Notes: a model not told the origin generated them from the letters alone. DNA of 43,027 nt from Candidatus Pacearchaeota archaeon (GCA_030699205.1 JAUYJY010000058.1:1-43027); one strand, 5' to 3'; positions 20,389 through 38,404 are shown, counted from the stretch's first letter. Numbers and translations are program-made.

Positions 20389-20748
20389 ATGGCAAAGAAA
20401 ACAAAGACAAGACAGATAATTCTTAAGCAAGAATCAGGAACATTTACTACCCTCTTCAAAAAGTTCTCCGGAGAGAAAAAAAACTATGATTTTCAAGGAC
20501 TTGCCTCTCTAAGAAACCTGCTTTCAAATGAAAAAGCAAGAACATTAGATTTCATAAAAAATAAAAATCCCAAATCAATATATGATTTATCAAGAAAACT
20601 CAAAAGAGATTTTAAATCTGTAAATGATGATGTTAAATTATTGGAAAAATTTGGATTCATAGATTTAATTCAGGAAAAAACAGGGAAAAGAAATAGGTTA
20701 AGACCCGTGATTATCATAGATTCTATAAACATAGAAATTAACATTTAA
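20389..20748 (+). CDS. Small HTH/winged-helix DNA-binding protein
   Basis: 119 aa. KARTLDFIKNKNPKSIYDLSRKLKRDFKSVNDDVKLLEKFGFI is an HTH-wing pattern. The gene is convergent with the end of operon 1. Confidence 0.5.
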   Translation: MAKKTKTRQIILKQESGTFTTLFKKFSGEKKNYDFQGLASLRNLLSNEKARTLDFIKNKNPKSIYDLSRKLKRDFKSVNDDVKLLEKFGFIDLIQEKTGKRNRLRPVIIIDSINIEINI

Positions 20749-21272
20749 TAACATAACTTCAATGTCGTGGTAATACTCCCAGGAAATTCAGGAGTCCAAT
20801 AAGAATTTCCAAAAACACTCCCTTCGCAAGAACCTCCCATAATCTCCAAAATTTCCTCTCTCTGTCCTGCCTGATTTGAATTATTATGGCTATAAACTAT
20901 CCCTAATTCATACCCCTTAATCTGAAAATCTTCTCCATATTTCCAAGAAGCCTCTAAAATATTTGTAAATGTTTCATTCAAGACATTGCAAGTCTTTTCT
21001 TCATTAACGCATTCATTATTTGATGAATAACATTCACTTATCAATTCATCTAACTTCAATAAACTTCTTCCCTCGCTTAACGCACATTCGGTGGTTTGCT
21101 CCATAGAACTCTCTAAAAACTGATAAACTTCCTGACTCTCTCTCTGGCTGTCTCCTCCCTTTCTTAATGAAATCCCCAAGAAAACCATTATTACCACCAT
21201 AACTAATACAATTATCAAAACAAATCCCACTATTTCTTCCTGCCCTCTCTTTCTCACTTTATCTTTCTCCAT
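20745..21272 (-). CDS. Prepilin-like protein (class III signal peptide), 175 aa
   Basis: The N-terminus is MEKDKVRKRG|QEEIVGFVLIIVLVMVVIMVFLGI, followed by a soluble domain with 4-5 Cys. Confidence 0.6.
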   Translation of the reverse strand: MEKDKVRKRGQEEIVGFVLIIVLVMVVIMVFLGISLRKGGDSQRESQEVYQFLESSMEQTTECALSEGRSLLKLDELISECYSSNNECVNEEKTCNVLNETFTNILEASWKYGEDFQIKGYELGIVYSHNNSNQAGQREEILEIMGGSCEGSVFGNSYWTPEFPGSITTTLKLCY

Positions 21273-21315: not shown

Positions 21316-21837
21316 TCATTCAACACTTTCAAACCCCATTACAATCTTTCCTAACTCACATTCATCCTGTTCAATCCCTGAATTATATCTGCATAAAGAA
21401 ACAAAAGCCTCATAAGATTCATAATTCTCTTTTTTAGTCAATGTAATTTGATTGCATCTTGGATAACTTTGTGGCGTGCATTCTTCAGTGCTATATAATG
21501 GATAAACTCTTATTATTTGCAATAAACTCACATCCTTCCAGAAATTTTGATATGAATTCCTATTTTTCAATAAAAATGCCTTATCCAAATCAACACACCC
21601 CGCACAATCTCCAAAATTTCCCCAAAGAAATTCCGGACTCCCTGAAATTTTCCTCACAGATTCTATAACTTCCTGTTTTCTAAAATCTGAAGCTTCTTCT
21701 TTTATTGAAGAAAACTTAATAGAGGTATAAAATATAGCAACAATTACAAAAAATATAATCGTAGCCACTAAAACAAAAGCCATTTGCTGTATTTTTACCT
21801 GCCCTTTAGAATACGCCACATTTCGTAATTTTGTCAT
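21316..21837 (-). CDS. Prepilin-like protein (class III signal peptide), 173 aa
   Basis: The N-terminus is ...AYSKG|QVKIQQMAFVLVATIIFFVIVAIFY. It overlaps the upstream gene by 32 nt. Confidence 0.6.
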   Translation of the reverse strand: MTKLRNVAYSKGQVKIQQMAFVLVATIIFFVIVAIFYTSIKFSSIKEEASDFRKQEVIESVRKISGSPEFLWGNFGDCAGCVDLDKAFLLKNRNSYQNFWKDVSLLQIIRVYPLYSTEECTPQSYPRCNQITLTKKENYESYEAFVSLCRYNSGIEQDECELGKIVMGFESVE

Positions 21838-22741
21838 TTTTATCCTTTAAAATATCTGAGTTTCCTTCAATTCTCTGGAGTTCATTAGAACTCTCAATTA
21901 AAACAGCAGACGCAAAACTTCTCAAATCCTGCTCTAAACTATTTGAACATCCGCTATCTTCTAAAAATTTTGCCTTTTCTGCATAAACATAAGAAAGTTC
22001 ACTTGCCCTTTTCATCAGTCTTTTTATCTGACATTCATATATCTCTGGCTCTGAAAAAATTGCACCATATATCAATGAATCAGTATAATGCAAATCGCTT
22101 CCTTGCTTTGAAATAATTTTTGCGTTAGAATTCACATTAATATCACATCCAATTAAATCAAAACAAACTTTTACACTTTCATCAGGGCAAGAAGAAACTC
22201 TACTACTAATATTTATTCCGATGTTTCCCCCTGCAGATAAGTCCTCAATTTCCTCTTCTATATCTCTTGGAGGGTTAATAAAACAATAGTCTTTAGAATA
22301 CATGAAAATTGCATCTCCGACTTTAAAAGGCATTTCAAATGGTTTTACTATGACATTCATTTCTTTTCCTTCTTCAAAATTTTCAGAAAAAACATATTTA
22401 TTAAATGAGCTTTTTGGATTGCTTTGCGTTCCCCATTCATCTCCCACTCCAATTTTAGAGGCGGTGCTTATCTCCTGCCTCCCAAAATTTCCATTTTCAA
22501 AACAATCATTAAAGACCCTCGTTTCTTGCACAAATCTTATTTTTACATACTTACTGTCTTCCAGATTTGTTTCAATCGGATTTAATAAGTTGCTTAATTC
22601 TGCAGAAACAAATGTGTCTGAAACCTTTCTATTTGTGTCTACAAATTTTGTTGCAATAAAAATTGCAAGAAATAAAATTACTGCTCCGACAAGTATAGCA
22701 AACAACCAATTAAACCCAAATTCTAATCCTCTTTTTTTCAT
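21806..22741 (-). CDS. Prepilin-like protein (class III signal peptide), 311 aa
   Basis: The N-terminus is MKKRG|LEFGFNWLFAILVGAVILFLAIFIA. It shares 1 nt with the upstream gene (its start at 22741 meets that gene's stop). Confidence 0.6.
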   Translation of the reverse strand: MKKRGLEFGFNWLFAILVGAVILFLAIFIATKFVDTNRKVSDTFVSAELSNLLNPIETNLEDSKYVKIRFVQETRVFNDCFENGNFGRQEISTASKIGVGDEWGTQSNPKSSFNKYVFSENFEEGKEMNVIVKPFEMPFKVGDAIFMYSKDYCFINPPRDIEEEIEDLSAGGNIGINISSRVSSCPDESVKVCFDLIGCDINVNSNAKIISKQGSDLHYTDSLIYGAIFSEPEIYECQIKRLMKRASELSYVYAEKAKFLEDSGCSNSLEQDLRSFASAVLIESSNELQRIEGNSDILKDKNDKITKCGVF

Positions 22742-23250
22742 TAAGGCCTCTTTATCCTCACTGAAGAATCAAAATCTCCTTTCTCAAGCCTGACCTCAAT
22801 TTTTCCGCTTTTAACTTCAAAACATTCAAAGTCACTTCCCAATCCCGTCAAACTAATTCTATCAACTTCAGAAAATGCAAAATCTCCCGCAAACTTCATT
22901 GGATAAATAAATCTGTTTGTGTTTTCTTTTTCAAAATTAGAGCTGAACTCCTTAAATTCATCATACTCTTCCTTGTATTGCAATTCATAAGTAGAACCTT
23001 TTAAGTCCCCAAAACAAACTAATTCAATATTTCCCGGAAGATTAAAAGAAAAAACTTTGTTAGTTATAGCACTTCCCCAAATTTCATCAATCGTTTCCTG
23101 AAATTCCTGATGAAAAAGCACAACCTCAGTATCGCTTCCCAATCCAATGAAAGAAATAATTATATAACTCGCAACTCCCACAATAGCGATTATCATAATT
23201 ATGGAAAAAATCATTCCAAACGACAAAGACAGCACACCTCTTTTATTCAT
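22741..23250 (-). CDS. Prepilin-like protein (class III signal peptide), 169 aa
   Basis: The N-terminus is MNKRG|VLSLSFGMIFSIIMIIAIVGVASYII. Confidence 0.6.
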   Translation of the reverse strand: MNKRGVLSLSFGMIFSIIMIIAIVGVASYIIISFIGLGSDTEVVLFHQEFQETIDEIWGSAITNKVFSFNLPGNIELVCFGDLKGSTYELQYKEEYDEFKEFSSNFEKENTNRFIYPMKFAGDFAFSEVDRISLTGLGSDFECFEVKSGKIEVRLEKGDFDSSVRIKRP

Positions 23251-24395: not shown

Positions 24396-26492
24396 CTATA
24401 CAATATTAGTCGCCGAAGCAGTTAAACTGCATTGGTTTGGTGCAGGTTGATTTCCAAACTCGTCAGCACATTTTATATAATAAACAATATTGGGTTTCCA
24501 TTCAGCATAACTTGTTGTTTTTTCAGTCGCGGGATTATGTATCATCTTTATTCCCTCGTCAATATTAAAGTTACAGCTGTTTAATGAATAAGTGCATTCG
24601 GCAGGCTCATTCGTAACTATCTTTAAAGTATCCAAAAAATGATATGCCCTTGCAACCATTGGTTCTGTAACATCTACAAATACATTAAAGCTCGTGGAAT
24701 CTTCCGCACTATTCCCTCCCGCATCTATACATCTAAAGAAATAGTTATAATCTCCTGAGATTAATGTTAAAACTTGCCGATGTTCAAATCCCCCCGAATC
24801 AAACATCGCAACATAACTCCCTTCTTCTCCAGAATCAGAAAAATAACAAACTGCTTCTCCTTCCTTTGCCCCGTCATCCGTCTTCACATATAATTCAATT
24901 TCAACAACTTCTGTGCTTCCAGTTATTGTTTCATTAGGAGCAACGGAAAGAATGCTCAATGGTTGACTTCCAAGCAAATTGAGATTATAACTTCCCACAT
25001 TAACATTTCTCTCATTATCTGGCTTTTTAGGCTGGTCCTTGCATCTAAAATAATAATTATTCTCTTGTCTGTCAACTATTCCAGTGAGAGTAGTAGAACA
25101 AGTATAAAGCTCTCTTGCATTTATTTCAGTTAATTTTGTTGCACATTGCATTTCTTGTTCCATTTCCTCATACGCCTTGTCTTGAACACTCCATTTACAT
25201 TCCGAAGGTTCATTTACATAAATTTCCATCGGGGTTTCCCCTGAATTATATGAAATATAACTTCCCGATTTAATGGAAGTATCAACAATTATCGGCGGAG
25301 TTGTATCCGGACTTGGGTCCACACAAAATTGGAAGTCAAACTCTCCCACATTCTCATTCCCATTTTTATCCCTGCATCTAACAAATAGATTATATCTCCC
25401 ATCATTCTGTAATTCAGGAGCTTCTGAATTTATCGCATCAGGCGACGGCAAACTCATTACCTGTGTATGATTATATAAATAAAAGTTGCTTTTTCCAAAG
25501 AAGAAACTCATTTCATCCAATGTATCTTTATGAACTATATCTATTTTACATTGTGCTGGTTCATTAGTGGTTATTCCAAAGCTTAATGGTGTAAACGCCT
25601 GCAAACACCCGTTACTCACATCTTCCCTAACAATTTTAGCTCCCAAACTTGGAGGCCTCGTATCATGATTAGTGTATTTATGCTTTTCCGTTAATGGCTC
25701 CTGCCAAGGTGTTATAGTCGGAGGACTTGCATCATTTGGATTCACCCAAGCACATTTTTCTTCAGTAGTTCCGGAATTTACAATCTCACATGCTTGCCCT
25801 AAAGCCCTGCACCTATATTCAGAGCAAGGCCTAAATGGGTCTGCGTTGCATTTCTCACAATCCCCTCCGCCGACAGGAGCTTCAAAAGGAAGACATTGAA
25901 AATCAACCCTGACTTCCTTTTCAGATTTATATAATAAAATAAATACAACAACACCGACCGTAATTCCGATAATTGGTCCTGCAACTCCCTGAGTCAATCC
26001 ATCAATCCCAAATAATGTATCTTTAGCAGCACTACCAATCAAATTAGAAGAAAAAAATCCCGCAAAAGTTCCAACACCCGCCGCAGTGCTTAAAGCATCA
26101 GCCACATTTTTATCAACCCCAAATAAAGTCGTCAATAACTTAACCCCCATATACACAGAAAGCCCCCAAACAGCCCCCTGCATCAACGCACTCGGAATTT
26201 TCCCCGGCGTCGCACCAAACGCTTCTCCAGAATATAACTTCCCGAAGAAACCTGATTCTGTTGGGTTTGGAGTTGTTCCTGCCTCTCTTCCAGCCTGCCA
26301 AGCTTTATCCCTTCCGAGTAATTTATCGAATAAACTCCAAGTAGGTTCTCCTCCTTCTTCCTGCCCGCTAACCCTCTGCGTTTCCCCAATCAAAAACGCA
26401 AACGAAACAACAGAAAAAACTATAAGAAATATTTGCGTAAAAACCAACGTCGTCCCAACTTTATACGGGGGAAACTTTCCTCTCTTTTGCAT
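24396..26492 (-). CDS. 698-aa membrane/surface protein. It has an N-terminal anchor, a Gly-rich membrane region, a Cys-knot-like segment and Ig-like repeats, and is a paralogue of the C-terminal part of the 1333-aa protein.
   Basis: VDFQCLPFEAPVGGGDCEKCNADPFRPCSEYRCRALGQACEIVNSG aligns with VDFSCLPWQPPSGGQSCEECDSDDLGCSEYKCNSLGQNCELLNEG in ORF 33463-37464. The NEPSECKWS and NEPAECTYS repeat markers are shared. Confidence 0.75.
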   Translation of the reverse strand: MQKRGKFPPYKVGTTLVFTQIFLIVFSVVSFAFLIGETQRVSGQEEGGEPTWSLFDKLLGRDKAWQAGREAGTTPNPTESGFFGKLYSGEAFGATPGKIPSALMQGAVWGLSVYMGVKLLTTLFGVDKNVADALSTAAGVGTFAGFFSSNLIGSAAKDTLFGIDGLTQGVAGPIIGITVGVVVFILLYKSEKEVRVDFQCLPFEAPVGGGDCEKCNADPFRPCSEYRCRALGQACEIVNSGTTEEKCAWVNPNDASPPTITPWQEPLTEKHKYTNHDTRPPSLGAKIVREDVSNGCLQAFTPLSFGITTNEPAQCKIDIVHKDTLDEMSFFFGKSNFYLYNHTQVMSLPSPDAINSEAPELQNDGRYNLFVRCRDKNGNENVGEFDFQFCVDPSPDTTPPIIVDTSIKSGSYISYNSGETPMEIYVNEPSECKWSVQDKAYEEMEQEMQCATKLTEINARELYTCSTTLTGIVDRQENNYYFRCKDQPKKPDNERNVNVGSYNLNLLGSQPLSILSVAPNETITGSTEVVEIELYVKTDDGAKEGEAVCYFSDSGEEGSYVAMFDSGGFEHRQVLTLISGDYNYFFRCIDAGGNSAEDSTSFNVFVDVTEPMVARAYHFLDTLKIVTNEPAECTYSLNSCNFNIDEGIKMIHNPATEKTTSYAEWKPNIVYYIKCADEFGNQPAPNQCSLTASATNIV

Positions 26493-27717: not shown

Positions 27718-27785
27718 CTGAAATACCATCATAACAGAAAGATTTAAATAGTATAATCGTAATTATACTAATCGTAATTATACAA

Positions 27786-29219: not shown

Positions 29220-29234
29220 AAATCACAATCAAAA

Positions 29235-29366
29235 ACGCGAACGAAACAACAGAAGAAATTATCAAAAAAATTTGCGTAAAACCAAATTATAATTTAAGAC
29301 ACCAACTCTTTTTTGCATATGTTAAATAAAGATTTATTGTTTGTAAATATTAGTGGAATTAAGCCA
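29235..29366 (-). pseudogene. F2: truncated copy of the 5' end and promoter of the 698-aa gene
   Basis: The minus strand reads ATG CAA AAA AGA GTT GGT..., giving MQKRVGVLNYNLVLRKFF-stop. The upstream tttgtaaatattagtgg matches F0. Confidence 0.65.
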
Positions 29367-29412
29367 TTTCCCTTATAAGAATGTTTATAAGTTAAATTCT
29401 CTATTATTAAAA

Positions 29413-29775: not shown

Positions 29776-30071
29776 GAATGATTAATGGCTTTATAAAAAA
29801 AGCACAAAAAGAAATTGCAATAAATAAAGTAATATTATTTGGAAGCCAAGCATCTAATACAACGCATAAAGACAGCGATATAGACTTAATAATAGTATCT
29901 CCAGATTTTGAGAGTATGAGTGCTATTCAACGTGCCGCAAAACTATACAACTATTGGGAAGCCCTGTATCCTGTGGATTTTATTTGTTACACTCCAAAGG
30001 AATTTAATATTCTAAAAAGAAGAATTACCATTGTAAAAGAAGCTCTTTCCAAAGGAATTATTGTAGTCTGA
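29754..30071 (+). CDS. Minimal nucleotidyltransferase (MNT-type)
   Basis: LFGSQASNTTHKDSDIDLIIVSP (GS...DxD). Confidence 0.75.
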   Translation: MGKKEIIRMINGFIKKAQKEIAINKVILFGSQASNTTHKDSDIDLIIVSPDFESMSAIQRAAKLYNYWEALYPVDFICYTPKEFNILKRRITIVKEALSKGIIVV

Positions 30072-30076
30072 ATTTT

Positions 30077-30213
30077 TTATCCAATCAAAAACGCAAAAGA
30101 AACAACAGAAAAAACAATTAAAAATATCTGCCCGAAAACTAAATTATAATTAAAAACCTTTCCTCTCTTTTGCATATAAAAGATAACAACTTATTGTTTA
30201 TAAATATTGGTGG
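30077..30213 (-). pseudogene. F3: near-identical truncated copy of the promoter plus the first 32 codons of the 698-aa gene
   Basis: The minus strand 30175->30077 encodes MQKRGKVFNYNLVFGQIFLIVFSVVSFAFLIG-stop. F0 encodes ...FTQIFLIVFSVVSFAFLIGETQ. The ~55 nt around the ATG and TATA box are almost identical to F0. Confidence 0.8.
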
Positions 30214-30221
30214 AAATTAAA

Positions 30222-30823: not shown

Positions 30824-30917
30824 TATAGTCTAAGACATTTATAATTGAAATGTGTTTGTCTTAGACTATTAGCGGAAGAACAAAAAACTGTTCAAAATAT
30901 TTTGTCTTCTGCTATAT
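30824..30917 (+). mobile_element. R-type MITE-like repeat, copy R7
   Basis: Canonical termini and stems. Loop 1 differs (ttgaaatgtgt). Confidence 0.85.
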
Positions 30918-31080
30918 TATAAATAGTGTTGGTTATTAATCAAATTTTCCATATTTTAACTCATATTTAATAATACAACCCCTAATGGTAAAATAGAACG
31001 GAAAATAATTCTAGGTGATTGATTGATTTACAGGTAGGAATAATTAAATCTCACGCAAATCCGTCGTTTTATCCCAACAA

Positions 31081-32628
31081 TCATATTTCTTCGCTTGTAA
31101 CTTTATACCCAGAATCATATCCTTGTCTTCCAAGCCAATTCAACGAAGGTCCGCAATCTCCCAATGCACTGCAAATTTCTCCCTTGTCTTTTTCCCATTC
31201 TTCTGTAAGGCATTCGCATCCCTCAACACATTCTTCTCCCCCAAACAATCCTTCTTCAAACTTTACAATGCAGACAGCATTTCCTTGTGAGCAAATTTCA
31301 AGTGTTTCTGCATCATCCCAGAAGTTAAATCCTGGAGAATTTTCAGGAAAGCAACTGCCAGTTCTCTCCGTTGTATTTGTTTGCAAGATGACCCCTTCCT
31401 TCCAGAAACAATCTCCCTTATCTTCATTTTCACAATCTCTTTGCTCTGTCTGTCCGGCACAATACTGCCATCTATTTACTTTACAAACTGCTTGCGAAAA
31501 ACCAGAAGTTTCTTCTTGGATGCATTCTTCCGCCCTAAAGTCAGAGCATTGTTCTAAAACTTCTTCTCCATTAATACAAAGATGCCTATAAAACCTGCTT
31601 CCAACCGTATTTTTGCCGTCCCCAATACTTCCAAAATCATCATTCACACACCAGCTTTCTCCATGCAAATAATCATTTCCATTCTCTGTATCTTTACAGT
31701 TTAAATCAGCACATATAAAATCTCCATAAGTCGCAGATTTACCTGCGATATTCTCTGCCCTGCAATAGCTTCCTTCCAGATAATTGCAATTTCCACAAGA
31801 ACTACTTCCAGCATTTCCACTTCCCGGACTGCAACTCTCATCTTTTGGTTTTATATTGGTCCAATATTCCGCGTCATTTACTTTACTTGCATCATAAATA
31901 TTTGCGGTATTCCCGCAAGAATCTATAAAATAAACCTCATCATTCCCTGGATTGCATGTTGTTTGCGTCGTTGGTCCGCAATTAGTCCCCAACTCTTCGG
32001 CACTGCATAATTTTCCGGAATAAAAATTTCCATCTGTAATAGTTATATTGCTTTCTCCCGTGCCTGCTTTCTGTGACCCTTCACATTCACTTCTCGTAGT
32101 AAATTCGCACGTCTTTTCAAATTCAAACTCATAAACACAAGCACCCCTCTCTTGTGTCTGCACTTTTTGTATGCACGCAAGTTCGTTCTGGACAGAAGTA
32201 TCATAATTTGTTTTTAATCCAAGAGACGCAGATAGTTTCTTGCATCTGACTAAAGAAACAAAAGCCGCCTGGTCTCCAAGAATACAGCATCCCAATGCAC
32301 ATTGAGGCGGGCTTTCTTCACTCCAAACGCCCCCATTATCATTGCAAACTAATTGGGGAGTGTTATCTAAACAAATTCCTTCAGAAGAATCATAGCAAAC
32401 CCCTGGTCTGCAATAACTTGTTGAATCACACGAAGTAGGCACTGCCCTCGCACCAGGAGCACATTCTTCGGCAGGCACATTCTGACAGGAAGCACCTGTA
32501 TTTGTCTGCTCACAACACACCGTCGCCGAACTTCCCTGTGCAAAAACAAAATCCGTATTAAAATAAAAAACTCCCCCTGATAAAACTAATAAAAACACAA
32601 TCCATATAGCAATTATTTTTCTTTTCAT
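31081..32628 (-). CDS. 515-aa secreted cysteine-rich protein, a paralogue of the N-terminal domain of the 1333-aa protein
   Basis: The start was moved to MKRKIIAIWIVFLLVLSGG (a Sec-type signal), whose ATG lies 1 nt after the upstream gene's stop. I count about 43 Cys. EVYFIDSCGNTANIYDASK matches EVYFIDSCGNRGNIYDSNK, and SALGDCGPSLNWLG matches MSLGDCGASVNYNG. Confidence 0.75.
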   Translation of the reverse strand: MKRKIIAIWIVFLLVLSGGVFYFNTDFVFAQGSSATVCCEQTNTGASCQNVPAEECAPGARAVPTSCDSTSYCRPGVCYDSSEGICLDNTPQLVCNDNGGVWSEESPPQCALGCCILGDQAAFVSLVRCKKLSASLGLKTNYDTSVQNELACIQKVQTQERGACVYEFEFEKTCEFTTRSECEGSQKAGTGESNITITDGNFYSGKLCSAEELGTNCGPTTQTTCNPGNDEVYFIDSCGNTANIYDASKVNDAEYWTNIKPKDESCSPGSGNAGSSSCGNCNYLEGSYCRAENIAGKSATYGDFICADLNCKDTENGNDYLHGESWCVNDDFGSIGDGKNTVGSRFYRHLCINGEEVLEQCSDFRAEECIQEETSGFSQAVCKVNRWQYCAGQTEQRDCENEDKGDCFWKEGVILQTNTTERTGSCFPENSPGFNFWDDAETLEICSQGNAVCIVKFEEGLFGGEECVEGCECLTEEWEKDKGEICSALGDCGPSLNWLGRQGYDSGYKVTSEEI

Positions 32629-32629
32629 T

Positions 32630-33388
32630 TTACACATACCCTTGAGGCCACACAAGGCTTCTCGAAGCAAAAGTAAACTCATCTCCTGTAATAACATTCC
32701 TTAATTTATATATTGTGTCTCCATTCCTTTTTATCTTTTCCATATTCAAATCAGGATAATAAGAAATATATAAACTCGTCTCCGCATCTCCAAAAGTGGA
32801 TTCAAACTGAATTATATTTGTTGCCAAAGAAAGCAAATCATACAATTCGGAGTTAATTGAAACAGCAAATTTACTAAACGTCTGTACTGATTCTTTTTCA
32901 ATGGTCATCGGAGAAAGAAAATTCACTGCAATTTTTCCCAATTCAATATCTACCTCAACTTGCCCTTGAGTTGTCCTCACGCTATATCCTTGGCTTTTGT
33001 ATTGCTCTTCCAAATTCTTTACACATTGTCTTGCTACTGGTTCTATTTTTCCCTTAATTTCTTCTTCCATATGTTTTACCAATAAAGGTTGTTGAACCTT
33101 GCATGGTAAATAATTTTCCGAAGTATAGCAAAGATATTGTATTTTATTATCTAAATACATCAGATAATTATCAGGCTCCAAATATCCCCCTTGCTTGCTT
33201 AAAACTGAAAGAGTATCTTTGACTTCAGATTCAATGCAACTTCTCAAATAAGAACTTGGATTTACCTCACTGCTTAAAATACTAACTCCAGGAAAGAAAA
33301 AAAGCAAGGTAATTCCGACAACTATCACTATTGCAATAATAATAAAAATAGTCACCTGCCCTCTTTTATCCATTATTATTTTACTCAT
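32630..33388 (-). CDS. Prepilin-like protein (class III signal peptide), 252 aa
   Basis: The N-terminus is MSKIIMDKRG|QVTIFIIIAIVIVVGITLLFFF. It is a paralogue of ORF 37470-38234. Confidence 0.65.
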   Translation of the reverse strand: MSKIIMDKRGQVTIFIIIAIVIVVGITLLFFFPGVSILSSEVNPSSYLRSCIESEVKDTLSVLSKQGGYLEPDNYLMYLDNKIQYLCYTSENYLPCKVQQPLLVKHMEEEIKGKIEPVARQCVKNLEEQYKSQGYSVRTTQGQVEVDIELGKIAVNFLSPMTIEKESVQTFSKFAVSINSELYDLLSLATNIIQFESTFGDAETSLYISYYPDLNMEKIKRNGDTIYKLRNVITGDEFTFASRSLVWPQGYV

Positions 33389-33462
33389 AGTTTATTTATA
33401 AATAATTGCTCTTTCCATTTTATCAATCATTTAGAAGATAATTTCTTCAAACATAGATTTTC

Positions 33463-36400
33463 TTAATATCCTCCGCTTATCGTCAGACAGCTCCCCACAT
33501 TTTCATAAATATCTCTGCACTTAATTCTATAAACTAATCCTAAATCAAATGGAGTAGTATGCAAATAGTTTTCCCCACTCATTAACTCTCCGGAATCAAA
33601 GCTGAATCCGCAATTTGTATTTGTGTATGTGCATACAGCCGGCTCATTTGTAACAATATTCAAAACATTTCCCGATGAATAAATTCTGGAAGCAATAGGT
33701 CCCTTATTGTCTACCTTAACTTCAAAATTGGCAGTTTCTAAAGCAACATTTCCAGCAGAGTCGGTGCATTTTAATTCATATTCATAATTTCCATTTGGAA
33801 GAGTCAAACCTTTTTGTAAATGCACTTCTCCCCCGGTTGGAAAGAAGCCACTATAATGTATCACATTGCTTGATTTATGCTCACAAATTGCATTATTATT
33901 CACTCCTCCGGAAGTATGTATCTCCAAATCAATAACTGCAAAAGCACTTCCGCTATAAACTATTTCATCATCTGGATAAATATAATCAATTACTAAAGGG
34001 TTTAGGGTTTTCTTTATTTGATATTCTTTTTCTTGGTCTGCTTTATTTCTATCTGTATTATTTATTCCAAGCCAAGGTTGGTCTTCACACTTAAAATAAT
34101 AACTTTCAGTTTCATTTCCCTGCACGGGAAGGTTTGCAAGACAAGACCATCCATTAATTGTGCCTTGATTTATCCCATTAGAACAAGCCGCAAGATTTTC
34201 CATTTCATCATAACCCTTATTTTCAGGACTCCACTTACACTCCGCAGGCTCATTAGTAAAGAAAGTTAAACTAAAATTTTCAGCTTCAAACCCTGCATAT
34301 CCCGGATTCTCTGGAACAAACTTGGTTATCACTGCTGGGGTTTTGTCGTCTGCAGGCTTCACACAGAATTTTATTGCATATTCAGCAGAGTTATCATTTC
34401 CCGAACTATCCTGACATCTTACAAACATATTATAGTTCTCTCTTCTGTCAGGTCCAACACCTCCAACACCCAAATCAGAGAGGGAAGGCATAGTTAAAAG
34501 AGCATCATGATTTTCTTTGTACGAATTACTCTTTCCAAAGAACATTTCCATTTCATCATATGTATTTGTATGCTCAAAACTATATTTACATTGTCCGGGT
34601 TCATCTAAACTAATTCCAAATTCTATCAGAGAAAATTCTTTAATGCAACCATCTCCCGAAACAGATTGAATTTCAGTTCCAACATTTATCACCGAATTCT
34701 TATATTCAAATCCATCAGAAATTACATCATCCCATTTATCTATCACTGGAGGAGATGTATCATTAGGATTTATATCAACGCATGTTTGTTCCGAAGTACC
34801 TTCATTTAACAACTCGCAGTTTTGTCCGAGACTATTGCATTTATATTCGGAACATCCCAAATCATCTGAATCGCATTCCTCACAGCTTTGTCCTCCCGAA
34901 GGTGGTTGCCAAGGAAGGCAAGAAAAGTCAACAGTTACTTCTCTCGTTTCTCCTCCTAATAAACTCAATATAACTGCTATAACAACAATTATAAGAATTG
35001 TCCAAAATAAGAAAGGTCCTAATGCCGCACCAAAAGATGCACCTTTCGCAACAAACGTAGTTGTTTCAAATGCTAAATATCCCATAACTGCACCGACAAC
35101 TGCCCCCGCAATAACGAGTGTATTAAGGCTTTTTCCCTCTAATCCAAATACAGTTCCTAAGATATAAGCAATCGCCGCACCCGCCGCCGCACCACCGGCT
35201 GCCGAGCCAAAAGGCCCTAAACTTTTAGGAACGCCTGCAACTACCGCTTCGCCAGCACCCGCTGCCGCACCTACACCCGAAGCAGCAGCGGTAGCAGCAC
35301 CAGAAACCGCCCCAGCGCCAGCCACCGCACCAGAAGTAATCGCAGCAATAGGTATTCCTTCAATCAAAACAAAATACATCGTCGCAACACCAATAGACCC
35401 CAAACCAATCTGTCCCATAAGTGCACCCAATTGGCTGGGATCTGCATTTACAGGGTCAATTCCAAAAATTGCAAGTATTTCTTCTCCTGAAAGTGCATCA
35501 GCACTCTGTCCGGGAATTGGAGTGGAATATTTTCTTAAGCCATTAAGGTAATCATCACTTAAACCATTTCCCCCAACCACATTATATCCATCACTGCTCA
35601 ACTCCCCATTATAATTAACAGAAGCTCCACAATCTCCTAAACTCATACATAAATTATTCATAGTTTCTGCAAATTTAGGTTCTGCACACCCACAATTAGC
35701 TACGCAATCCCAGCTTCCCAGAAACTTTTCTTCAATATATGTGCAGGTTTGACTTCCCAATGATGAACAAAGCCCTTCAGCAGAACTTTCCCTTGATTCC
35801 TTATCAAATCCTGGAGGATATTTTGGAACGCATAAATCAAATTTAAAGAATTCATCAACATCTACATGCTTCAAAAAACAATCAGTATTTTCTTCGCATT
35901 TGTTTAACTTGTTTTTATCTCCATTTGCAGCATAACAAACCTGCCACGTATTTGCTCTGCAAGATGCAGATGAAAAGTCAATTTCCTCATTTTTATTTTC
36001 AACACAAACTTTGCTTCTCACAGCAGAACAAGATTCCGTTCTAATTTCCCCATCAAAACAGGTCTGTGTATAATGTGCACTTCCCGGAGTATCAACACTC
36101 CTTTCTTCGTTGCTTCCTTGGTTCTCTCTTGCTTCCTCTTCATAATTACACCACCCTTCAAGTTCAGGGTTTTCTGCAACCATCGTCGCATTTTGACAAA
36201 CTCTATCAGAAGTTATTCTTCCATTTGAACCTGGAGGACACAACCAATTTATAAATTGATTCCCGCTTGTTCCAGTTGGATTTAAATACCTATCACAAAT
36301 ATTTCCTAAAACTCCTTCGCGGTTTGAAGAAGTTTCATCAACTCCAATCTGTCCGTCAAACCTGCACCAACTCTCTCCATTTTTTCTTGTTTCTCCTTGA

Positions 36401-37464
36401 TAATCCACACATCTCAAATCCTTACAAACATAATCTCCATAATTTGCATTGTCATCTTTTCCGCTTACAGGTTTTCCACAAATACTTCCCAATAAATATC
36501 CACAACTTCCGCAGGATTTTTGATTTCCAAAATTATTGGATATTGTTCCTAAACTACAACTCTCACTTATGGGAACAACATCATTCCAATAAACTCCTGC
36601 AAGTTTGTTAGAATCATAAATATTCCCTCTATTCCCGCAAGAATCTATAAAATAAACTTCATCCCTTCCTTCAAAGCAGTTAGTCTCCTGAGTAATTTCA
36701 CAAATAGTTTCAATTCCCTCTCCATTAATCTCTAAATCTTCCGCAGTGCATAATTTATTTTTAAAAAATTCACCCCCAGAACCTAAACAAACAGATTTTG
36801 TTGCAAACTCGCAATTATACTTTCCTTCTTCAGGGATTAATTCTAAGATACAGGCACCTTCTTCTTGAGTATTTGACAATAATAAGCACTCAAGTTCATT
36901 ATTTACACTAACCCATTCAACAGGGGTAGAACCAAATGCTCCAGAAAGATAATTGCATTGTTGTTCTGTGGTATATTGCGTTTGTCCTGCTCCGCCGTTT
37001 CCATCAGGATTTATCAAACAACAATTTCTGTTGCATATTCCATCTAAAGGATTCCAAGTTCCCCCAGAATTTTCACAAGTCAATTTAGGACTCCCATCAC
37101 TGCAAGTTCCAATTAGAGGGTCAAAACAAGTTCCTATTCGGCATTCAGCAGTATTCTCTCTTGCACTTTCAACACAACCACCGGGACAAACATTAATATC
37201 GGCACATTCCGAAGAAGGATACTCCTGACATATTGTTCCATTATTATCTTCCAAACAAGTCCATAAAAGTTCTTGTGCACTTACAATCCCCCCACTCAAC
37301 CAATCCAAAACTTTCCACCTCAAAAAACTAATAAATTTACTTTCTCCAACATTTTTAATTTCATTTTCTACAAACAAATCATTAGTTTCTCCAACAATAT
37401 ATGAAAAAGAAACAACAGACATAATTACTAAAAAAATTTCAAACAATGCTTTTCCTTTATTCAT
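33463..37464 (-). CDS. 1333-aa giant cysteine-rich membrane/surface protein
   Basis: The start was taken at MNKGKALFEIFLVIMSVVSFSYIVG. An N-terminal Cys-rich domain is followed by a Gly/Ala-rich multi-helix membrane segment. The C-terminal repeats are marked by NEPAECKWS, NEPAVCTYT and C-x-D-x-x-GN. Confidence 0.8.
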   Translation of the reverse strand: MNKGKALFEIFLVIMSVVSFSYIVGETNDLFVENEIKNVGESKFISFLRWKVLDWLSGGIVSAQELLWTCLEDNNGTICQEYPSSECADINVCPGGCVESARENTAECRIGTCFDPLIGTCSDGSPKLTCENSGGTWNPLDGICNRNCCLINPDGNGGAGQTQYTTEQQCNYLSGAFGSTPVEWVSVNNELECLLLSNTQEEGACILELIPEEGKYNCEFATKSVCLGSGGEFFKNKLCTAEDLEINGEGIETICEITQETNCFEGRDEVYFIDSCGNRGNIYDSNKLAGVYWNDVVPISESCSLGTISNNFGNQKSCGSCGYLLGSICGKPVSGKDDNANYGDYVCKDLRCVDYQGETRKNGESWCRFDGQIGVDETSSNREGVLGNICDRYLNPTGTSGNQFINWLCPPGSNGRITSDRVCQNATMVAENPELEGWCNYEEEARENQGSNEERSVDTPGSAHYTQTCFDGEIRTESCSAVRSKVCVENKNEEIDFSSASCRANTWQVCYAANGDKNKLNKCEENTDCFLKHVDVDEFFKFDLCVPKYPPGFDKESRESSAEGLCSSLGSQTCTYIEEKFLGSWDCVANCGCAEPKFAETMNNLCMSLGDCGASVNYNGELSSDGYNVVGGNGLSDDYLNGLRKYSTPIPGQSADALSGEEILAIFGIDPVNADPSQLGALMGQIGLGSIGVATMYFVLIEGIPIAAITSGAVAGAGAVSGAATAAASGVGAAAGAGEAVVAGVPKSLGPFGSAAGGAAAGAAIAYILGTVFGLEGKSLNTLVIAGAVVGAVMGYLAFETTTFVAKGASFGAALGPFLFWTILIIVVIAVILSLLGGETREVTVDFSCLPWQPPSGGQSCEECDSDDLGCSEYKCNSLGQNCELLNEGTSEQTCVDINPNDTSPPVIDKWDDVISDGFEYKNSVINVGTEIQSVSGDGCIKEFSLIEFGISLDEPGQCKYSFEHTNTYDEMEMFFGKSNSYKENHDALLTMPSLSDLGVGGVGPDRRENYNMFVRCQDSSGNDNSAEYAIKFCVKPADDKTPAVITKFVPENPGYAGFEAENFSLTFFTNEPAECKWSPENKGYDEMENLAACSNGINQGTINGWSCLANLPVQGNETESYYFKCEDQPWLGINNTDRNKADQEKEYQIKKTLNPLVIDYIYPDDEIVYSGSAFAVIDLEIHTSGGVNNNAICEHKSSNVIHYSGFFPTGGEVHLQKGLTLPNGNYEYELKCTDSAGNVALETANFEVKVDNKGPIASRIYSSGNVLNIVTNEPAVCTYTNTNCGFSFDSGELMSGENYLHTTPFDLGLVYRIKCRDIYENVGSCLTISGGY

Positions 37465-37469
37465 TACAA

Positions 37470-38234
37470 CTAAATTCCGGCAGGAATTACACACCCCCTT
37501 ATCGCTAAATTCATTTTCTCTCCCGTTTTTTTATTTATTATACTATAAATGTTTGTCGAATCTCCAAAAAGTGTCTTCCTTATATCATAACTTGGATAAA
37601 GTGCCATAAATCCATTATTGCTAAAATGACAAAATTCAGCCTCTTGGTCTACAATCTCACTTGCAATATAAACTAAATTATAAGCATCACTCTTTACGAA
37701 AACATTAAAACTCTCAAAGTTTCTCACAACATCCCCCTTGATGATTGAAAAATCTCTATTAATTTTAGCTTCAACAATTTCAGGCCTAAAAGTAGTTTCA
37801 ACAGAAACGCCCCCTCCGGAAACTTCATAATTCTTATTTGTTAATTCATTATCAAGAGAAGCAAAACATTCTTCCACATCTTTTTTTACTTCTTCATTTA
37901 ACTCCTCTTGCAGTTTAATAATAAGTCGGGGGTATTGATTTACGCACGGCTCATAGTGCCTTATATTCTTGCAAAGATAAGCAACCTTTTCATTTTCATA
38001 AATCTTATAATCTATAGGATTAACAAAACCTCCACGAGGCAGCATTTCATCAATAACTTTTAACGTCGCCTTTTTCACACAGCCGTCAATAAAGCTTTCA
38101 GGATTATCGGAGCCCTGTCTCAAAATCTCAGGTTTTTTATCAATTAAGAAAAACAATCCAATTGCAACCACAATAACTATTGCAATTGCAACAAAAATCA
38201 TTATTTGTCCGCGATTATTCATTTCAAAACCCAC
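37470..38234 (-). CDS. Prepilin-like protein (class III signal peptide), 254 aa
   Basis: The N-terminus is MGFEMNNRG|QIMIFVAIAIVIVVAIGLFFLI. Confidence 0.65.
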   Translation of the reverse strand: MGFEMNNRGQIMIFVAIAIVIVVAIGLFFLIDKKPEILRQGSDNPESFIDGCVKKATLKVIDEMLPRGGFVNPIDYKIYENEKVAYLCKNIRHYEPCVNQYPRLIIKLQEELNEEVKKDVEECFASLDNELTNKNYEVSGGGVSVETTFRPEIVEAKINRDFSIIKGDVVRNFESFNVFVKSDAYNLVYIASEIVDQEAEFCHFSNNGFMALYPSYDIRKTLFGDSTNIYSIINKKTGEKMNLAIRGCVIPAGI

Positions 38235-38404
38235 AAATTAACCCCCTCTTTTTTTATTCTTTCAATTTTTCCATCCAAAACCAATTCAAGCAAATACTTA
38301 TCTGCAGTATTCCATGAGATTTTCAAAAACTTAGCAATTTCCGAACTGGTAACCACCCTCTTCTTTTTCACAAAATCTAATATCTTCTTATTATGAATAT
38401 TCAT
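38219..38404 (-). CDS. 61-aa winged-helix DNA-binding protein at the head of operon 2
   Basis: ILDFVKKKRVVTSSEIAKFLKISWNTADKYLLELVLDGKIERIK is an HTH plus wing. It overlaps the next gene by 16 nt. Confidence 0.6.
   Translation of the reverse strand: MNIHNKKILDFVKKKRVVTSSEIAKFLKISWNTADKYLLELVLDGKIERIKKEGVNLWVLK

What the first reader, a model, noticed from the sequence alone, without database searches (positions are those of the whole stretch)
31081..38404. Operon 2: a wHTH gene, two prepilin-like proteins, and 1333-aa and 515-aa cysteine-rich surface proteins form a candidate uncharacterised archaeal surface apparatus
Seen in sequence: five minus-strand genes run from 38404 to 31081 with overlaps or gaps under 80 nt. 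The 254-aa and 252-aa products are paralogues. Both start with a short basic segment ending in RG, followed directly by Q and a ~22-aa hydrophobic helix (MNNRG|QIMIFVAIAIVIVV, MDKRG|QVTIFIIIAIVIVV). The 1333-aa product starts the same way (MNKG|KALFEIFLVIMSVVSF). It then has a ~600-aa domain with densely and regularly spaced Cys, a Gly/Ala-rich multi-helix membrane segment, and C-terminal beta-sandwich-like repeats (NEPAxC[KT][WY][ST]...YDEME...C-x-D-x-x-GN). The 515-aa protein is a Sec-signal copy of the Cys-rich domain, with about 43 Cys by my count. Established knowledge: [KR]-G followed by a hydrophobic helix is the layout of archaeal class III signal peptides, which are cleaved by PibD/EppA/FlaK-type prepilin peptidases. 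Inference: this looks like pilin-like subunits plus giant disulfide-rich proteins that may themselves be pilin-anchored. Such a system could be an adhesion or host-contact structure in an episymbiotic DPANN cell. I do not recognise this gene set as any characterised system.
Basis: partly seen in the sequence, partly recalled or inferred. Interest (0 to 1): 0.85.

Follow-up and report, generated by a model that had tools for sequence, protein, structure and literature searches.

The report
Pacearchaeota pilin-like, cysteine-rich envelope gene cluster
The five genes are real and form the front half of an uncharacterised gene cluster found across Pacearchaeota (tiny, probably host-attached archaea), which combines six pilin-like proteins with three large disulfide-rich or Ig-like membrane proteins and probably builds a cell-surface structure that nobody has described.

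Summary
Five co-directional, tightly packed genes encode a small wHTH protein, two paralogous 250-aa proteins with conserved [KR]G|Q class III-type N-termini, a 1333-aa protein and a secreted 515-aa protein with 43 conserved Cys. The 1333-aa protein has an N-terminal helix, a 47-Cys ectodomain, Gly-zipper helices and tandem Ig-like domains.

The finding's coordinates are too narrow. In about 160 related loci the order is p254-giant-p252-p515-p698-p169-p311-p173-p175-(wHTH)-S-layer gene.

All six small proteins, and no other ORF of at least 100 aa in the window, carry pilin-type N-termini. The giant does not: Gly at -1 occurs in 2 of 78 orthologues. The giant is a fusion of a p698-like protein and a p515-like domain, so the cluster holds two paralogous sub-complexes.

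No Pfam, NCBIfam, PHROG or PDB relative exists for the Cys-rich or p254 families, and the p254 model (pLDDT 90) has no PDB fold match. The Cys-rich family has 1611 clusters at 50% identity. p515 is as conserved as the primase.

No assembly ATPase, platform or prepilin peptidase lies in the locus.

Best reading: a new, lineage-wide surface complex based on type IV pilin-like proteins. Its function (host contact or envelope scaffold) is unproven.

The parts
38219..38404 (-). 61-aa winged-HTH protein; its stop overlaps the start of p254 (ATGA). Probable local regulator, present upstream of p254 in about 21 related loci and replaced by other small proteins in others.
   Evidence: Pfam HTH_24 23.6 bits (cut-off 21.9); sequence; tblastn across loci; 49-aa alternative in L003
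37470..38222 (-). p254 (250 aa from the ATG): class III-type N-terminus MNNRG|QIMIFVAIAIVIVV, a flexible linker, then a globular alpha/beta ectodomain with 6 conserved Cys. Paralogue of p252.
   Evidence: AF2 pLDDT 90.1, TM helix 3-27, low-confidence linker 29-38. No PDB fold or sequence match
33463..37464 (-). Giant 1333-aa protein: N-terminal helix (consensus KKxIxxFEIxLL, not class III), Cys-rich ectodomain, Gly/Ala-zipper membrane segment and tandem Ig-like domains. It is a p698-like protein with a p515-like domain inserted after the first helix.
35515..37272 (-). Giant residues about 65-650: Cys-rich ectodomain (47 Cys, nearly all invariant in 60-109 orthologues), homologous to p515.
   Evidence: Invariant Cys columns. 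AF2 pLDDT mostly 85-95. No Pfam or PDB sequence match
34954..35427 (-). Giant residues about 680-837: Gly/Ala-rich (GxxxG-type) hydrophobic helices forming the membrane segment. The number of true membrane spans is unresolved.
   Evidence: Hydropathy. AF2 helices 688-701, 751-772, 778-801, 816-835 at low pLDDT
33466..34947 (-). Giant residues about 840-1333: a small Cys-knot (C-x11-C-x2-C-x6-C-x4-C-x6-C-x11-C) followed by tandem Ig-like beta-sandwich domains carrying NEPxxC[KT][WY][ST], YDEME and CxDxxGN motifs. Homologous to the C-terminal 500 aa of p698.
   Evidence: sub-threshold Big_13
32630..33373 (-). p252 (247 aa from MDKRGQ): class III-type N-terminus, paralogue of p254, more conserved than p254 (53% vs 42% median identity).
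31081..32628 (-). p515: Sec signal peptide plus Cys-rich domain, 43 Cys all at least 90% conserved. It is the best conserved protein of the cluster.
   Evidence: Family size 1611 clusters at 50% identity
30222..30692 (-). p156: lipobox-type (LTSGC) Gly-zipper small protein. Lipoprotein-like genes often sit in this slot between p515 and p698 in relatives. Variable accessory; membership uncertain.
   Evidence: Sequence. Analogous lipobox ORFs in L001, L003, L028, L074. p156 hit in L012, L172, L174
26493..30221 (.). Insertion that splits the cluster in this genome: HEPN+NTase (29353-30071), ATPase_2/DUF234 (27786-29108) and MNT+HepT (26693-27309). Each is flanked by a copy of the promoter and 5' end of p698. 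Not part of the system.
24396..26492 (-). p698: N-terminal helix, short ecto-loop, Gly-zipper helices and tandem Ig-like domains. Paralogue of the giant's non-Cys-rich parts and a core member of the cluster; directly follows p515 in most relatives.
22741..23250 (-). p169: pilin-like, MNKRG|VLSLSFGMIFS.
21806..22741 (-). p311: pilin-like, G|x[ED]F[ST]FxWxFA with invariant F+5, W+7, F+9.
21316..21837 (-). p173: pilin-like, KG|QxKIQQM invariant, 6 conserved Cys.
20745..21272 (-). p175: pilin-like, [KR]G|QEEIVGF invariant.
20389..20748 (+). 119-aa HVO_A0114-family wHTH, always found between p175 and the S-layer gene on the opposite strand.
   Evidence: Pfam PF25212 2.9e-15; synteny
17190..19964 (-). 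S-layer protein gene (S_layer_C), an invariant neighbour of the p169-p175 module.
   Evidence: Pfam; synteny in 80 of 80 loci with enough flank

Best explanation
The five genes are the front half of a conserved, Pacearchaeota-wide cell-envelope gene cluster.

Shown:
- The cluster encodes six different proteins with type IV prepilin-like (class III) N-termini: p254, p252, p169, p311, p173 and p175.
- It also encodes three large paralogous proteins: secreted Cys-rich p515; membrane-embedded p698 (Gly-zipper helices plus tandem Ig-like domains); and the 1333-aa giant, which is a p698-like protein with a p515-like domain inserted after its first helix.
- The cluster therefore contains two paralogous sub-modules, [p254 + giant] and [p252 + p515 + p698], plus a four-gene pilin-like module that always sits next to the S-layer gene.

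Inferred mechanism:
1. The six small proteins are cut after the conserved Gly by a prepilin peptidase encoded elsewhere.
2. Their family-specific, highly conserved N-terminal helices pack together, possibly through complementary charges such as K+3 of p173 and E+2/E+3 of p175. The conserved Glu in the giant's first helix may join this packing. The product would be a short pseudopilus-like stalk or a membrane-rooted helical bundle.
3. The Gly-zipper helices of p698 and the giant form the membrane base.
4. The Ig-like tandems act as spacers through the S-layer zone.
5. The disulfide-locked Cys-rich domains (p515 docked on p698, covalently fused in the giant) form the exposed heads.

The most likely role is a constitutive surface structure for contact with a host or substrate, or for organising the envelope. 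The wHTH gene is a local regulator.
For: - Class III layout. A leader of variable length always ends in [KR]-G (G 77-95%, otherwise A/S). Q occupies +1 in four families (70-100%). Residues +1 to +14 are invariant or nearly so within each family.
- Exactly 6 of 48 window ORFs fit the class III proxy, and all six are in the cluster.
- Profile-profile comparison aligns the six families only over the N-terminal 30-60 residues, in register. Conserved N-termini with unrelated globular domains is what pilin sets show.
- All six have even numbers of Cys, conserved where checked (p254/p252; p173), and the cluster is 5-fold enriched in Cys. This argues for extracellular, disulfide-bonded domains.
- Fusion logic: the giant's first helix matches that of p698 (50% over 22 aa), its N-domain matches p515 and its C-part matches p698.
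- Synteny holds in about 160 loci from species-representative genomes. A one-triad variant lacks p254-giant (L227, L229, L235, L236, L241, L242).
- The giant's C-terminus gives only tandem Ig-like fold hits.
- A PilB/GspE-type ATPase lies 184 nt upstream of p169, divergently transcribed, in one Pacearchaeon (L232). A PilT-type ATPase lies close downstream of p515, one gene (Hjc) between them, in another (L051).
- Literature: type IV pilus core genes (FlaIJK) are reported in 'Ca. Tiddalikarchaeales' (lineage LFWA-I of PMC8561730); that this order is a DPANN relative of Pacearchaeota is from my memory and was not checked. Unrecognisably diverged pilins next to secretion ATPase/TadC genes are reported in some DPANN genomes (PMC6393860). 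Pacearchaeota were enriched in the >2.5 um, host-attached size fraction.
Against: - No prepilin peptidase, assembly ATPase or platform gene lies within 10 kb of the cluster in about 160 loci, apart from L232 and L051. Two such adjacencies are roughly what chance would give.
- The L232 ATPase has no close relative in JGI metagenomes, so it is not a conserved partner.
- One paper states that type IV pilus components are missing in DPANN genomes.
- In the AF2 model of p254, a low-confidence 10-residue linker separates the membrane helix from the globular domain. Classic pilins have a continuous helix packed on a sheet. No known pilin fold was matched.
- No curated pilin family (Pfam, NCBIfam) matches any of the six proteins.
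- The membrane topology of p698 and the giant is unresolved.
- The Cys-rich domain could not be fold-searched on its own.
Confidence: 0.5

Rival explanations
1. Static membrane-anchored envelope scaffold. The six small proteins keep their N-termini as ordinary, uncleaved signal anchors. Together with p698, the giant and p515 they form a fixed complex under or within the S-layer, for example to anchor or space the S-layer. No prepilin processing and no filament assembly are involved.
For: - The p169-p175 module is invariably adjacent to the S-layer gene, even when the Cys-rich module lies elsewhere.
- No ATPase, platform or peptidase is in the locus.
- p515, p252 and p698 are conserved at housekeeping level.
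- p254 has a flexible linker and a non-pilin globular fold.
- N-glycosylation sequons are depleted relative to the S-layer protein, as expected for buried, tightly packed components.
Against: A plain signal anchor does not explain a near-invariant Gly right after the basic residues at the end of leaders that vary from 3 to more than 40 aa. It also does not explain the conserved Gln at +1 in four families. These are the hallmarks of prepilin peptidase substrates.
Confidence: 0.25
2. Host-specific adhesion pilus. The pilin-like proteins build an extended filament and the Cys-rich proteins are tip adhesins that recognise particular hosts.
For: - It has the same gene logic as the bacterial minor pilins plus PilY1.
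- Pacearchaeota appear strongly host-attached.
- The giant, p254 and p169 evolve faster (37-42% identity) than the rest.
- Extra copies of p254-giant occur in some genomes (L073).
Against: - p515 is as conserved as the primase, and all 43 Cys and many other residues are near-invariant. This is unlike host-range determinants.
- No obvious small, abundant major pilin gene and no assembly machinery are in the locus.
Confidence: 0.15
3. Trans-envelope conduit. The Gly-zipper helices of p698 and the giant oligomerise into a channel. The Cys-rich heads engage a host membrane, so the complex serves uptake of lipids, nucleotides or DNA for an organism with minimal metabolism.
For: - The GxxxG-rich helices are conserved in pattern.
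- The cluster is universal and conserved in a lineage described as metabolically minimal.
Against: There is no direct evidence of a pore. The membrane segment was modelled at low confidence (pLDDT 27-55). No transporter or nuclease domains were detected.
Confidence: 0.08
4. Integrated virus or mobile-element cargo, for example envelope or fusion glycoproteins.
For: The ectodomains are Cys-rich and carry membrane anchors. Mobile cassettes sit inside the cluster in this window.
Against: - The chromosomal position between PCNA/primase and the S-layer gene is fixed in about 160 loci.
- There are no significant PHROG hits.
- BFVD fold hits are only generic Ig-like domains.
- The mobile cassettes are an insertion specific to this genome.
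Confidence: 0.02

Closest known systems
Epd pili of Methanococcus maripaludis (EppA-processed pilins; archaeal type IV filament 'system 1')
   Same: Several different pilin-like genes sit in one cluster together with larger non-pilin surface proteins. Four of the six families here have a [KR]G|Q processing-site layout with Gln at +1. That Gln +1 is typical of EppA substrates is from my own knowledge.
   Different: The Epd locus carries its own ATPase, two platform genes and a dedicated peptidase; none is present here. No match to Pfam Class_IIIsignal/DUF361 or any curated pilin model. The Cys-rich and Gly-zipper/Ig-like partners have no counterpart.
Bacterial minor-pilin plus PilY1 priming/tip complex (FimU-PilVWXE-PilY1), and the T2SS pseudopilus tip GspHIJK
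   Same: The gene logic is the same: a set of non-identical pilin-like proteins with conserved N-terminal helices and unrelated globular domains, encoded together with a large non-pilin surface protein.
   Different: There is no sequence or fold relationship. There is no beta-propeller or vWA domain. Gln rather than Phe occupies +1. The large proteins here are themselves membrane-embedded.
Sulfolobus bindosome (class III signal peptides on globular sugar-binding proteins, assembled by the Bas system)
   Same: A class III-type N-terminus is joined through a linker to a sizeable globular ectodomain, as in the p254 model. The product is a surface assembly that need not be a long filament.
   Different: No substrate-binding-protein fold or family match. 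No BasE/BasF homologues in the locus.
Adhesin-like Ig-domain proteins in archaeal type IV filament subsystems 4A/4B (PilY-like adhesin, arCOG07037; Sivabalasarma & Albers 2026 preprint)
   Same: Multi-Ig-domain, adhesin-like proteins are encoded beside pilins.
   Different: Those loci are defined by an adjacent ATPase and platform. Here there is neither, and the Ig-like proteins carry Gly-zipper membrane segments and Cys-rich partners.
Predicted archaeal secretion/envelope complex around arCOG01314/arCOG02884 (Makarova, Galperin & Koonin 2015)
   Same: Membrane proteins with 2-4 helices and extracellular Ig-like domains are encoded with S-layer-like proteins.
   Different: Its defining parts (DUF4350 protein, MoxR-type AAA+ ATPase, vWA protein, DUF1616/COG4743) are absent here.

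Membership tests
Type IV filament (archaeal type IV pilus-like) system | Subunits with a class III signal peptide: a basic leader ending in [KR]-[G/A], then a hydrophobic helix | tested here: met
   Met at motif level, and conserved, for p254, p252, p169, p311, p173 and p175. Not met for the giant (G at -1 in 2 of 78 orthologues), p698 or p515.
Type IV filament (archaeal type IV pilus-like) system | Assembly ATPase (FlaI/PilB family) and platform protein (FlaJ/TadC/PilC) in the locus | tested here: not met
   No T2SSE-type Walker A ORF within 10 kb in about 160 loci, except PilT-like in L051 and PilB/GspE-like in L232. No platform gene was seen. Elsewhere in the genomes could not be tested.
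Type IV filament (archaeal type IV pilus-like) system | Prepilin (A24, PibD/FlaK/EppA-type) peptidase in the genome | not testable with these tools
   The window is a 43-kb contig without one. A GxGDxK motif scan of 2.65 Mb of related loci found none, but those loci are all the same neighbourhoods. Whole genomes could not be fetched.
Type IV filament (archaeal type IV pilus-like) system | Pilin fold: a long N-terminal helix continuous with, and packed against, a beta-sheet domain | tested here: inconclusive
   The p254 AF2 model (pLDDT 90) has helix 3-27, a low-confidence linker 29-38 and then an alpha/beta domain. Best PDB Foldseek hit E=0.011, TM 0.14. The four smaller proteins were not modelled.
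Curated archaeal pilin/archaellin families (Pfam, NCBIfam) | Profile match above the curated threshold | tested here: not met
   No hit at E<0.1 to any pilin or archaellin model for any of the six proteins.
EppA-type (Epd) pilins | Gln at +1 after the cleavage-site Gly | tested here: met
   Q at +1 in 70-100% of p254, p252, p173 and p175 orthologues. Not in p169 or p311.
Bacterial Ig-like surface-protein domains (Big_13 and relatives) | Tandem beta-sandwich domains | tested here: met
   Met at fold level: Foldseek E of about 1e-5 to 1e-6 to titin, cadherin and intimin tandems. Sequence hits to Big_13 are below threshold (20.9 and 25.8 vs 27 bits).
arCOG01314-associated predicted secretion complex | DUF4350 protein, MoxR AAA+ ATPase and vWA protein in the neighbourhood | tested here: not met
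   None among the called genes of L001-L004 or in the window.
Viral or mobile-element envelope proteins | Match to phage/virus protein families, or a variable genomic position | tested here: not met
   PHROG hits are only marginal (E=0.004 and 0.0006, to Gly-rich or Ig-like stretches). BFVD hits are generic Ig-like domains. The chromosomal position is fixed.

The most novel reading that the evidence does not exclude
The cluster encodes a previously unseen kind of envelope machine specific to Pacearchaeota and close relatives. A pilin-like helical stalk would be assembled without a dedicated locus-encoded motor. It would be rooted in a Gly-zipper channel formed by p698 and the giant, and capped by disulfide-locked heads that engage a host cell. 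This would be the physical host-contact or feeding organelle of one of the most metabolically reduced archaeal lineages, built almost entirely from protein folds with no known relatives.
Probability: 0.2. Interest if true: 0.9.

Novelty: new variant of a known kind. Interest (0 to 1): 0.68.

Why it matters
Pacearchaeota are abundant, uncultured, metabolically minimal archaea that appear to live attached to hosts, and no molecular structure for that attachment is known.

This cluster is present in hundreds of species-level genomes at a fixed place next to the S-layer gene. It holds the only prepilin-like proteins in the window and a very large protein family (1611 clusters at 50% identity) that has no model in Pfam or NCBIfam.

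It gives concrete, testable candidates for cryo-ET, metaproteomics (mature N-termini starting at Gln) and complex modelling. The [p254+giant] / [p252+p515+p698] paralogy gives a ready-made prediction of which proteins interact.

If the six proteins are true prepilin-peptidase substrates, the cluster extends the type IV filament superfamily to a new architecture. If they are not, it is a new kind of envelope complex.

Tried and rejected
1. Finding type IV pilus machinery in genomes that carry the cluster.
- A single-protein scan with the PilT-like ATPase from L051 found only itself.
- A metagenome scan with the PilB-like ATPase from L232 found only its own contig plus relatives at about 40% identity.
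- Motif scans of the fetched loci for T2SSE Walker A and for GxGDxK peptidases gave only L051 and L232.
- The key question therefore stays open.

2. Fold identification.
- The p254 model has no PDB match.
- The giant's model returns only Ig-like tandem hits in PDB and BFVD.

3. Profile searches of PDB sequences with the p254, giant and p515 alignments found nothing.

4. A viral or mobile origin was rejected.

5. Membership in the arCOG01314/MoxR/vWA predicted secretion system was rejected.

6. Topology by hydropathy: p698 orthologues show three segments before the Ig-like part (strong, weak, strong), and the giant shows four. A topology with both large domains outside is possible but not proven.

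7. N-glycosylation sequon counts were tried as a topology indicator. The cluster proteins are sequon-poor, like cytoplasmic proteins, so the test was uninformative.

8. Literature searches found no description of this cluster.

Full report
**What is at the coordinates**

The ORF list shows five minus-strand genes:
- a 61-aa protein at 38219-38404;
- p254 at 37470-38222, where the upstream GTG gives 254 aa and the ATG gives 250 aa starting MNNRGQ;
- a giant of 1333 aa from the ATG at 37464, running down to 33463;
- p252 at 32630-33373/33388;
- p515 at 31081-32628.

The genes are tightly packed. The wHTH stop and the p254 start overlap as ATGA. The other junctions are 5 nt, 74-89 nt and 1 nt.

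The 61-aa protein passes the Pfam HTH_24 threshold.
- p254 vs p252: 30% identity, E=1e-28;
- the giant's N-terminal half vs p515: E=8e-50 and 3e-18;

p515 has exactly 43 Cys and the giant has 68. The nine cluster proteins hold 4.24% Cys against 0.84% in 30 other proteins of the window (Fisher p=1e-32). The repeated C-terminal motifs are present.

**The system is larger than the finding**

The giant family has 172 detected relatives of 1100-1380 aa, nearly all unnamed. Those with a source name are labelled Pacearchaeota, Nanoarchaeota or Nanoarchaeia. I looked at gene neighbourhoods of three of them, of 80 species-representative loci found with the p515 alignment and of 80 more found with a p173 alignment. 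They show one conserved order:

primase(-), PCNA, [small regulator], p254, giant, p252, p515, [lipoprotein-like gene], p698, p169, [variable phosphatase], p311, p173, p175, HVO_A0114-type wHTH(-), S-layer gene.

In this window the cluster is split by 3.7 kb holding three cassettes: HEPN+nucleotidyltransferase, ATPase_2/DUF234 and MNT+HepT. Each cassette is flanked by a copy of about 150 nt that consists of the promoter and the first ~35 codons of p698. A 32-aa relic ORF, MQKRGKVFNYNLVFGQIFLIVFSVVSFAFLIG, sits at 30077-30175.

Three arrangements occur among relatives:
- the full cluster;
- a split form, in which p254-giant-p252-p515-p698 lies elsewhere while p169-p311-p173-p175-wHTH-S-layer stays together (for example L207, L214, L220, L232);
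- a one-triad form, PCNA-p252-p515-p698-p169..., without p254 and the giant (L227, L229, L235, L236, L241, L242).

The window itself is Pacearchaeota. It carries a pacearchaeosortase (NF033505, 1e-60) and its PACE-CTERM S-layer-type target (NF033506, 2e-172).

**The six small proteins**

A simple class III proxy flags 6 of the 48 ORFs of at least 100 aa in the window. These are exactly p254, p252, p169, p311, p173 and p175.

Across orthologues the basic leader varies from 3 to more than 40 residues. It always ends in [KR]-G (G 77-95%, otherwise A or S). Gln follows at +1 in p254, p252, p173 and p175 (70-100%).

The next 10-14 residues are family-specific and almost invariant:
- p173: KG|QxKIQQM[AV]F;
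- p175: [KR]G|QEEIVGF;
- p311: G|x[ED]F[ST]FxWxFA;
- p169: G|x[LI][ES][LI]SFGMIFS.

Profile-profile comparison aligns the six families with each other only over the first 30-60 residues, in register. Conserved N-termini with unrelated globular domains is the signature of pilin sets. A plain signal anchor would not need an invariant Gly at the end of a leader of variable length.

All six have an even number of Cys (6, 4, 2, 8, 6, 6). This fits disulfide-bonded ectodomains.

The AF2 model of p254 is confident (pLDDT 90.1, pTM 0.78). It shows a membrane helix (residues 3-27), a low-confidence linker (29-38) and an alpha/beta domain. It has no PDB fold match: the best hit is E=0.011 with TM 0.14. 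It also has no PDB sequence relative. None of the six matches any curated pilin or archaellin family.

They are therefore prepilin-like in their N-termini. At least p254 looks more like a class III-anchored globular protein, as in the Sulfolobus bindosome, than a filament-forming major pilin.

**The three large proteins**

The giant's N-terminus does not share the pilin layout. Its consensus is KKxIxxFEIxLL. Gly at the would-be -1 position occurs in 2 of 78 orthologues, while Lys six residues before a conserved Glu occurs in 51, with Arg in a further 8. This helix is homologous to the first helix of p698 (50% over 22 aa). In p698 it is followed by a VS[GA]|Q site typical of signal peptidase I.

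In alignments of 60-109 orthologues, essentially every Cys of the giant is invariant. All 43 Cys of p515 are at least 90% conserved.

The AF2 model of giant residues 1-1200 (pLDDT 77.6) breaks down as follows:
- the Cys-rich ectodomain (about 65-660) is mostly at 85-95;
- the Gly/Ala-rich helices (683-837) are at 27-55;
- an all-beta C-terminal region is at about 90.

Foldseek against PDB and BFVD returns only tandem Ig-like domains: titin, cadherins, intimin and phage Ig-like proteins, at E of about 1e-5 to 1e-6. Nothing identifies the Cys-rich domain. Profile searches of PDB sequences, Pfam, NCBIfam and PHROGs are also empty.

Hydropathy across 36 p698 orthologues shows three segments between the ecto-loop and the Ig-like part: a strong one, a weak Gly-rich one and a strong one. 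The giant shows four. A topology with the Cys-rich and Ig-like domains both outside is feasible. The conserved Cys pairs favour it, but it is not proven.

**Modular logic**

The giant equals the first helix of p698, plus a p515-like domain, plus the rest of p698. p515 and p698 are adjacent genes. The fusion therefore predicts that p515 and p698 form a complex.

Each such unit is preceded by its own p254/p252-type gene. The cluster thus holds two paralogous sub-modules, [p254+giant] and [p252+p515+p698]. The one-triad genomes show that a single triad can exist alone. L073 carries an extra p254-giant copy.

**Conservation and spread**

In 20 loci that contain all members, median identity to the window proteins is as follows:

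| Protein | Median identity |
|---|---|
| PCNA | 73% |
| p515 | 60.5% |
| primase | 59% |
| p252 | 53.5% |
| p698 | 53% |
| p173 | 50% |
| S-layer protein | 49% |
| p311 | 45% |
| p254 | 42% |
| p175 | 42% |
| giant | 39-41% |
| p169 | 37% |

p515 is thus under housekeeping-level constraint.

An exhaustive profile search finds 1611 clusters at 50% identity that carry the Cys-rich domain at E<=1e-3, and 863 at E<=1e-30. They fall into two size classes, about 500-650 aa and about 1100-1500 aa. In species-representative genomes, 463 stretches match p515 or the giant's N-domain, and 283 match p173. Almost all records are titled Pacearchaeota, Woesearchaeota or Nanoarchaeota.

**Is there an assembly machine?**

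None is in the locus. No T2SSE-type ATPase, platform or GxGDxK peptidase lies within 10 kb in about 160 loci. There are two exceptions:
- a 609-aa PilB/GspE-type ATPase 184 nt upstream of p169, divergently transcribed, in L232 (T2SSE 3e-109, TIGR02533 7e-117).

The L232 gene has no close relative in JGI metagenomes. Two adjacencies among about 160 loci are roughly what chance would give. They show only that some of these archaea own bacterial-type pilus ATPases.

The literature is split. One study states that type IV pilus components are missing in DPANN, and it finds Pacearchaeota enriched in the host-attached size fraction. Others report FlaIJK in a DPANN lineage ('Ca. Tiddalikarchaeales') and diverged "dark-matter" pilins next to secretion ATPase/TadC genes in some DPANN genomes. 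My attempts to reach the rest of the cluster-bearing genomes failed.

**Most likely mechanism**

Shown: the gene set, the paralogy, the conserved prepilin-type N-termini, the Cys conservation, the Ig-like tandems and the synteny with the S-layer gene.

Inferred:
1. The six small proteins are cleaved after Gly by a peptidase encoded elsewhere.
2. Their conserved N-terminal helices pack into a short pseudopilus-like stalk or a membrane-rooted bundle. Complementary conserved charges may take part, such as K+3 in p173, E+2/E+3 in p175 and the Glu in the giant's first helix.
3. The Gly-zipper helices of p698 and the giant form the base.
4. The Ig-like tandems span the S-layer zone.
5. The disulfide-locked Cys-rich domains form the exposed heads, with p515 docked on p698.

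I put this at 0.5. The main rival is an uncleaved, static S-layer-associated scaffold (0.25). It is favoured by the invariable S-layer linkage, the housekeeping-level conservation and the absence of machinery, but it does not explain the invariant Gly and Gln. The other rivals are an extended host-specific adhesion pilus (0.15), a Gly-zipper conduit (0.08) and a viral or mobile origin (0.02).

**Comparison with known systems**

The cluster works most like the minor-pilin-plus-large-protein modules of type IV filaments: the bacterial FimU-PilVWXE-PilY1 and GspHIJK sets, and the archaeal Epd locus with Gln+1 pilins. It also resembles the bindosome idea of class III-anchored globular proteins.

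As for membership, it meets the signal-peptide criterion. It fails the locus criterion (ATPase plus platform). It fails every curated pilin profile. It is inconclusive on fold.

It is not the arCOG01314/MoxR/vWA complex. No paper I could find describes it.

**Verdict**

This is a real, strongly conserved, uncharacterised envelope gene cluster. It is best filed as a new variant of a type IV pilin-like system, and much of its protein content has no known relatives.

The pilin-like reading holds for the small proteins but not for the giant. The system is about twice as large as stated. The adhesion role is open.

Noticed in passing
window 26381-26532, 27335-27401, 29220-29358, 30076-30215; relic ORF 30077-30175; also 27624-27725 and 30824-30925: Three toxin-antitoxin/ATPase cassettes (MNT+HepT, ATPase_2/DUF234, HEPN+NTase) sit between p156 and p698. 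Each is flanked by a copy (63-84% identical) of about 150 nt comprising the promoter and first ~35 codons of p698. A 32-aa relic of the p698 N-terminus lies right after p156. A 102-nt element containing an inverted repeat is duplicated at 94% identity. This looks like serial integration into the 5' end of p698, each event restoring the gene start.
   Followed up: partly
window 11940-12494 and 9540-11531: A pacearchaeosortase (NF033505, 1e-60) lies next to its predicted PACE-CTERM S-layer-type substrate (NF033506, 2e-172). This fixes the taxon as Pacearchaeota and marks a second surface-protein system in the same window.
   Followed up: partly
L232:6540-8369 (-) and L051:2338-3444 (-): Bacterial-type type IV pilus ATPases occur in Pacearchaeota-like MAGs. 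A 609-aa PilB/GspE-like gene lies divergently, 184 nt upstream of the p169 module. A 368-aa PilT-like gene (45% identical to P. aeruginosa PilT) lies between Hjc and LysRS, close to p515. The PilB-like gene has no close relative in JGI metagenomes.
   Followed up: partly
L227, L229, L235, L236, L241, L242 (one triad); L073 (extra copy); L207, L214, L220, L232 (split): Three architectural variants of the cluster exist: one lacks p254 and the giant, one has an extra p254-giant pair, and one has the Cys-rich module and the four-pilin/S-layer module in separate places.
   Followed up: partly
window 23286-24359; L001:21558-21965; L002:19589-19996; L207:8630-9031: A variable slot near p169 holds a phosphoesterase of differing family: a DHH/DHHA1 protein between p698 and p169 in this window, a low-molecular-weight phosphatase (LMWPc) between p169 and p311 in several relatives, and nothing in L003.
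   Followed up: no
L207:6966-7853, L232:5397-6263, and equivalents in L214 and L220: An N-terminally anchored HtrA/DegP-like serine protease (Trypsin_2, 1e-35) lies upstream of p169 in the genomes where the four-pilin module is separated from the Cys-rich module.
   Followed up: no
window cluster proteins vs 17190-19964, 41165-42871, 9540-11531: N-glycosylation sequons are scarce in all cluster proteins (0-1.1 per 100 aa; only 4-6% of the Asn in the Cys-rich domains lie in sequons). The S-layer protein has 1.5 per 100 aa, p568 has 3.0 and the PACE-CTERM protein 1.1.
   Followed up: no
window 41165-42871 (-): A 568-aa probable surface protein with sub-threshold Ig-like/Y_Y_Y hits, a poly-Gly run (GGGGGGGGGGG), 17 sequons and a C-terminal membrane helix. 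It lies beyond the primase and is unrelated to the cluster families by BLASTP.
   Followed up: no
p515, window 31081-32628: p515 has an odd number (43) of conserved Cys. At least one may be free, metal-bound or engaged in an intermolecular disulfide, for example with p698 or p252.
   Followed up: no
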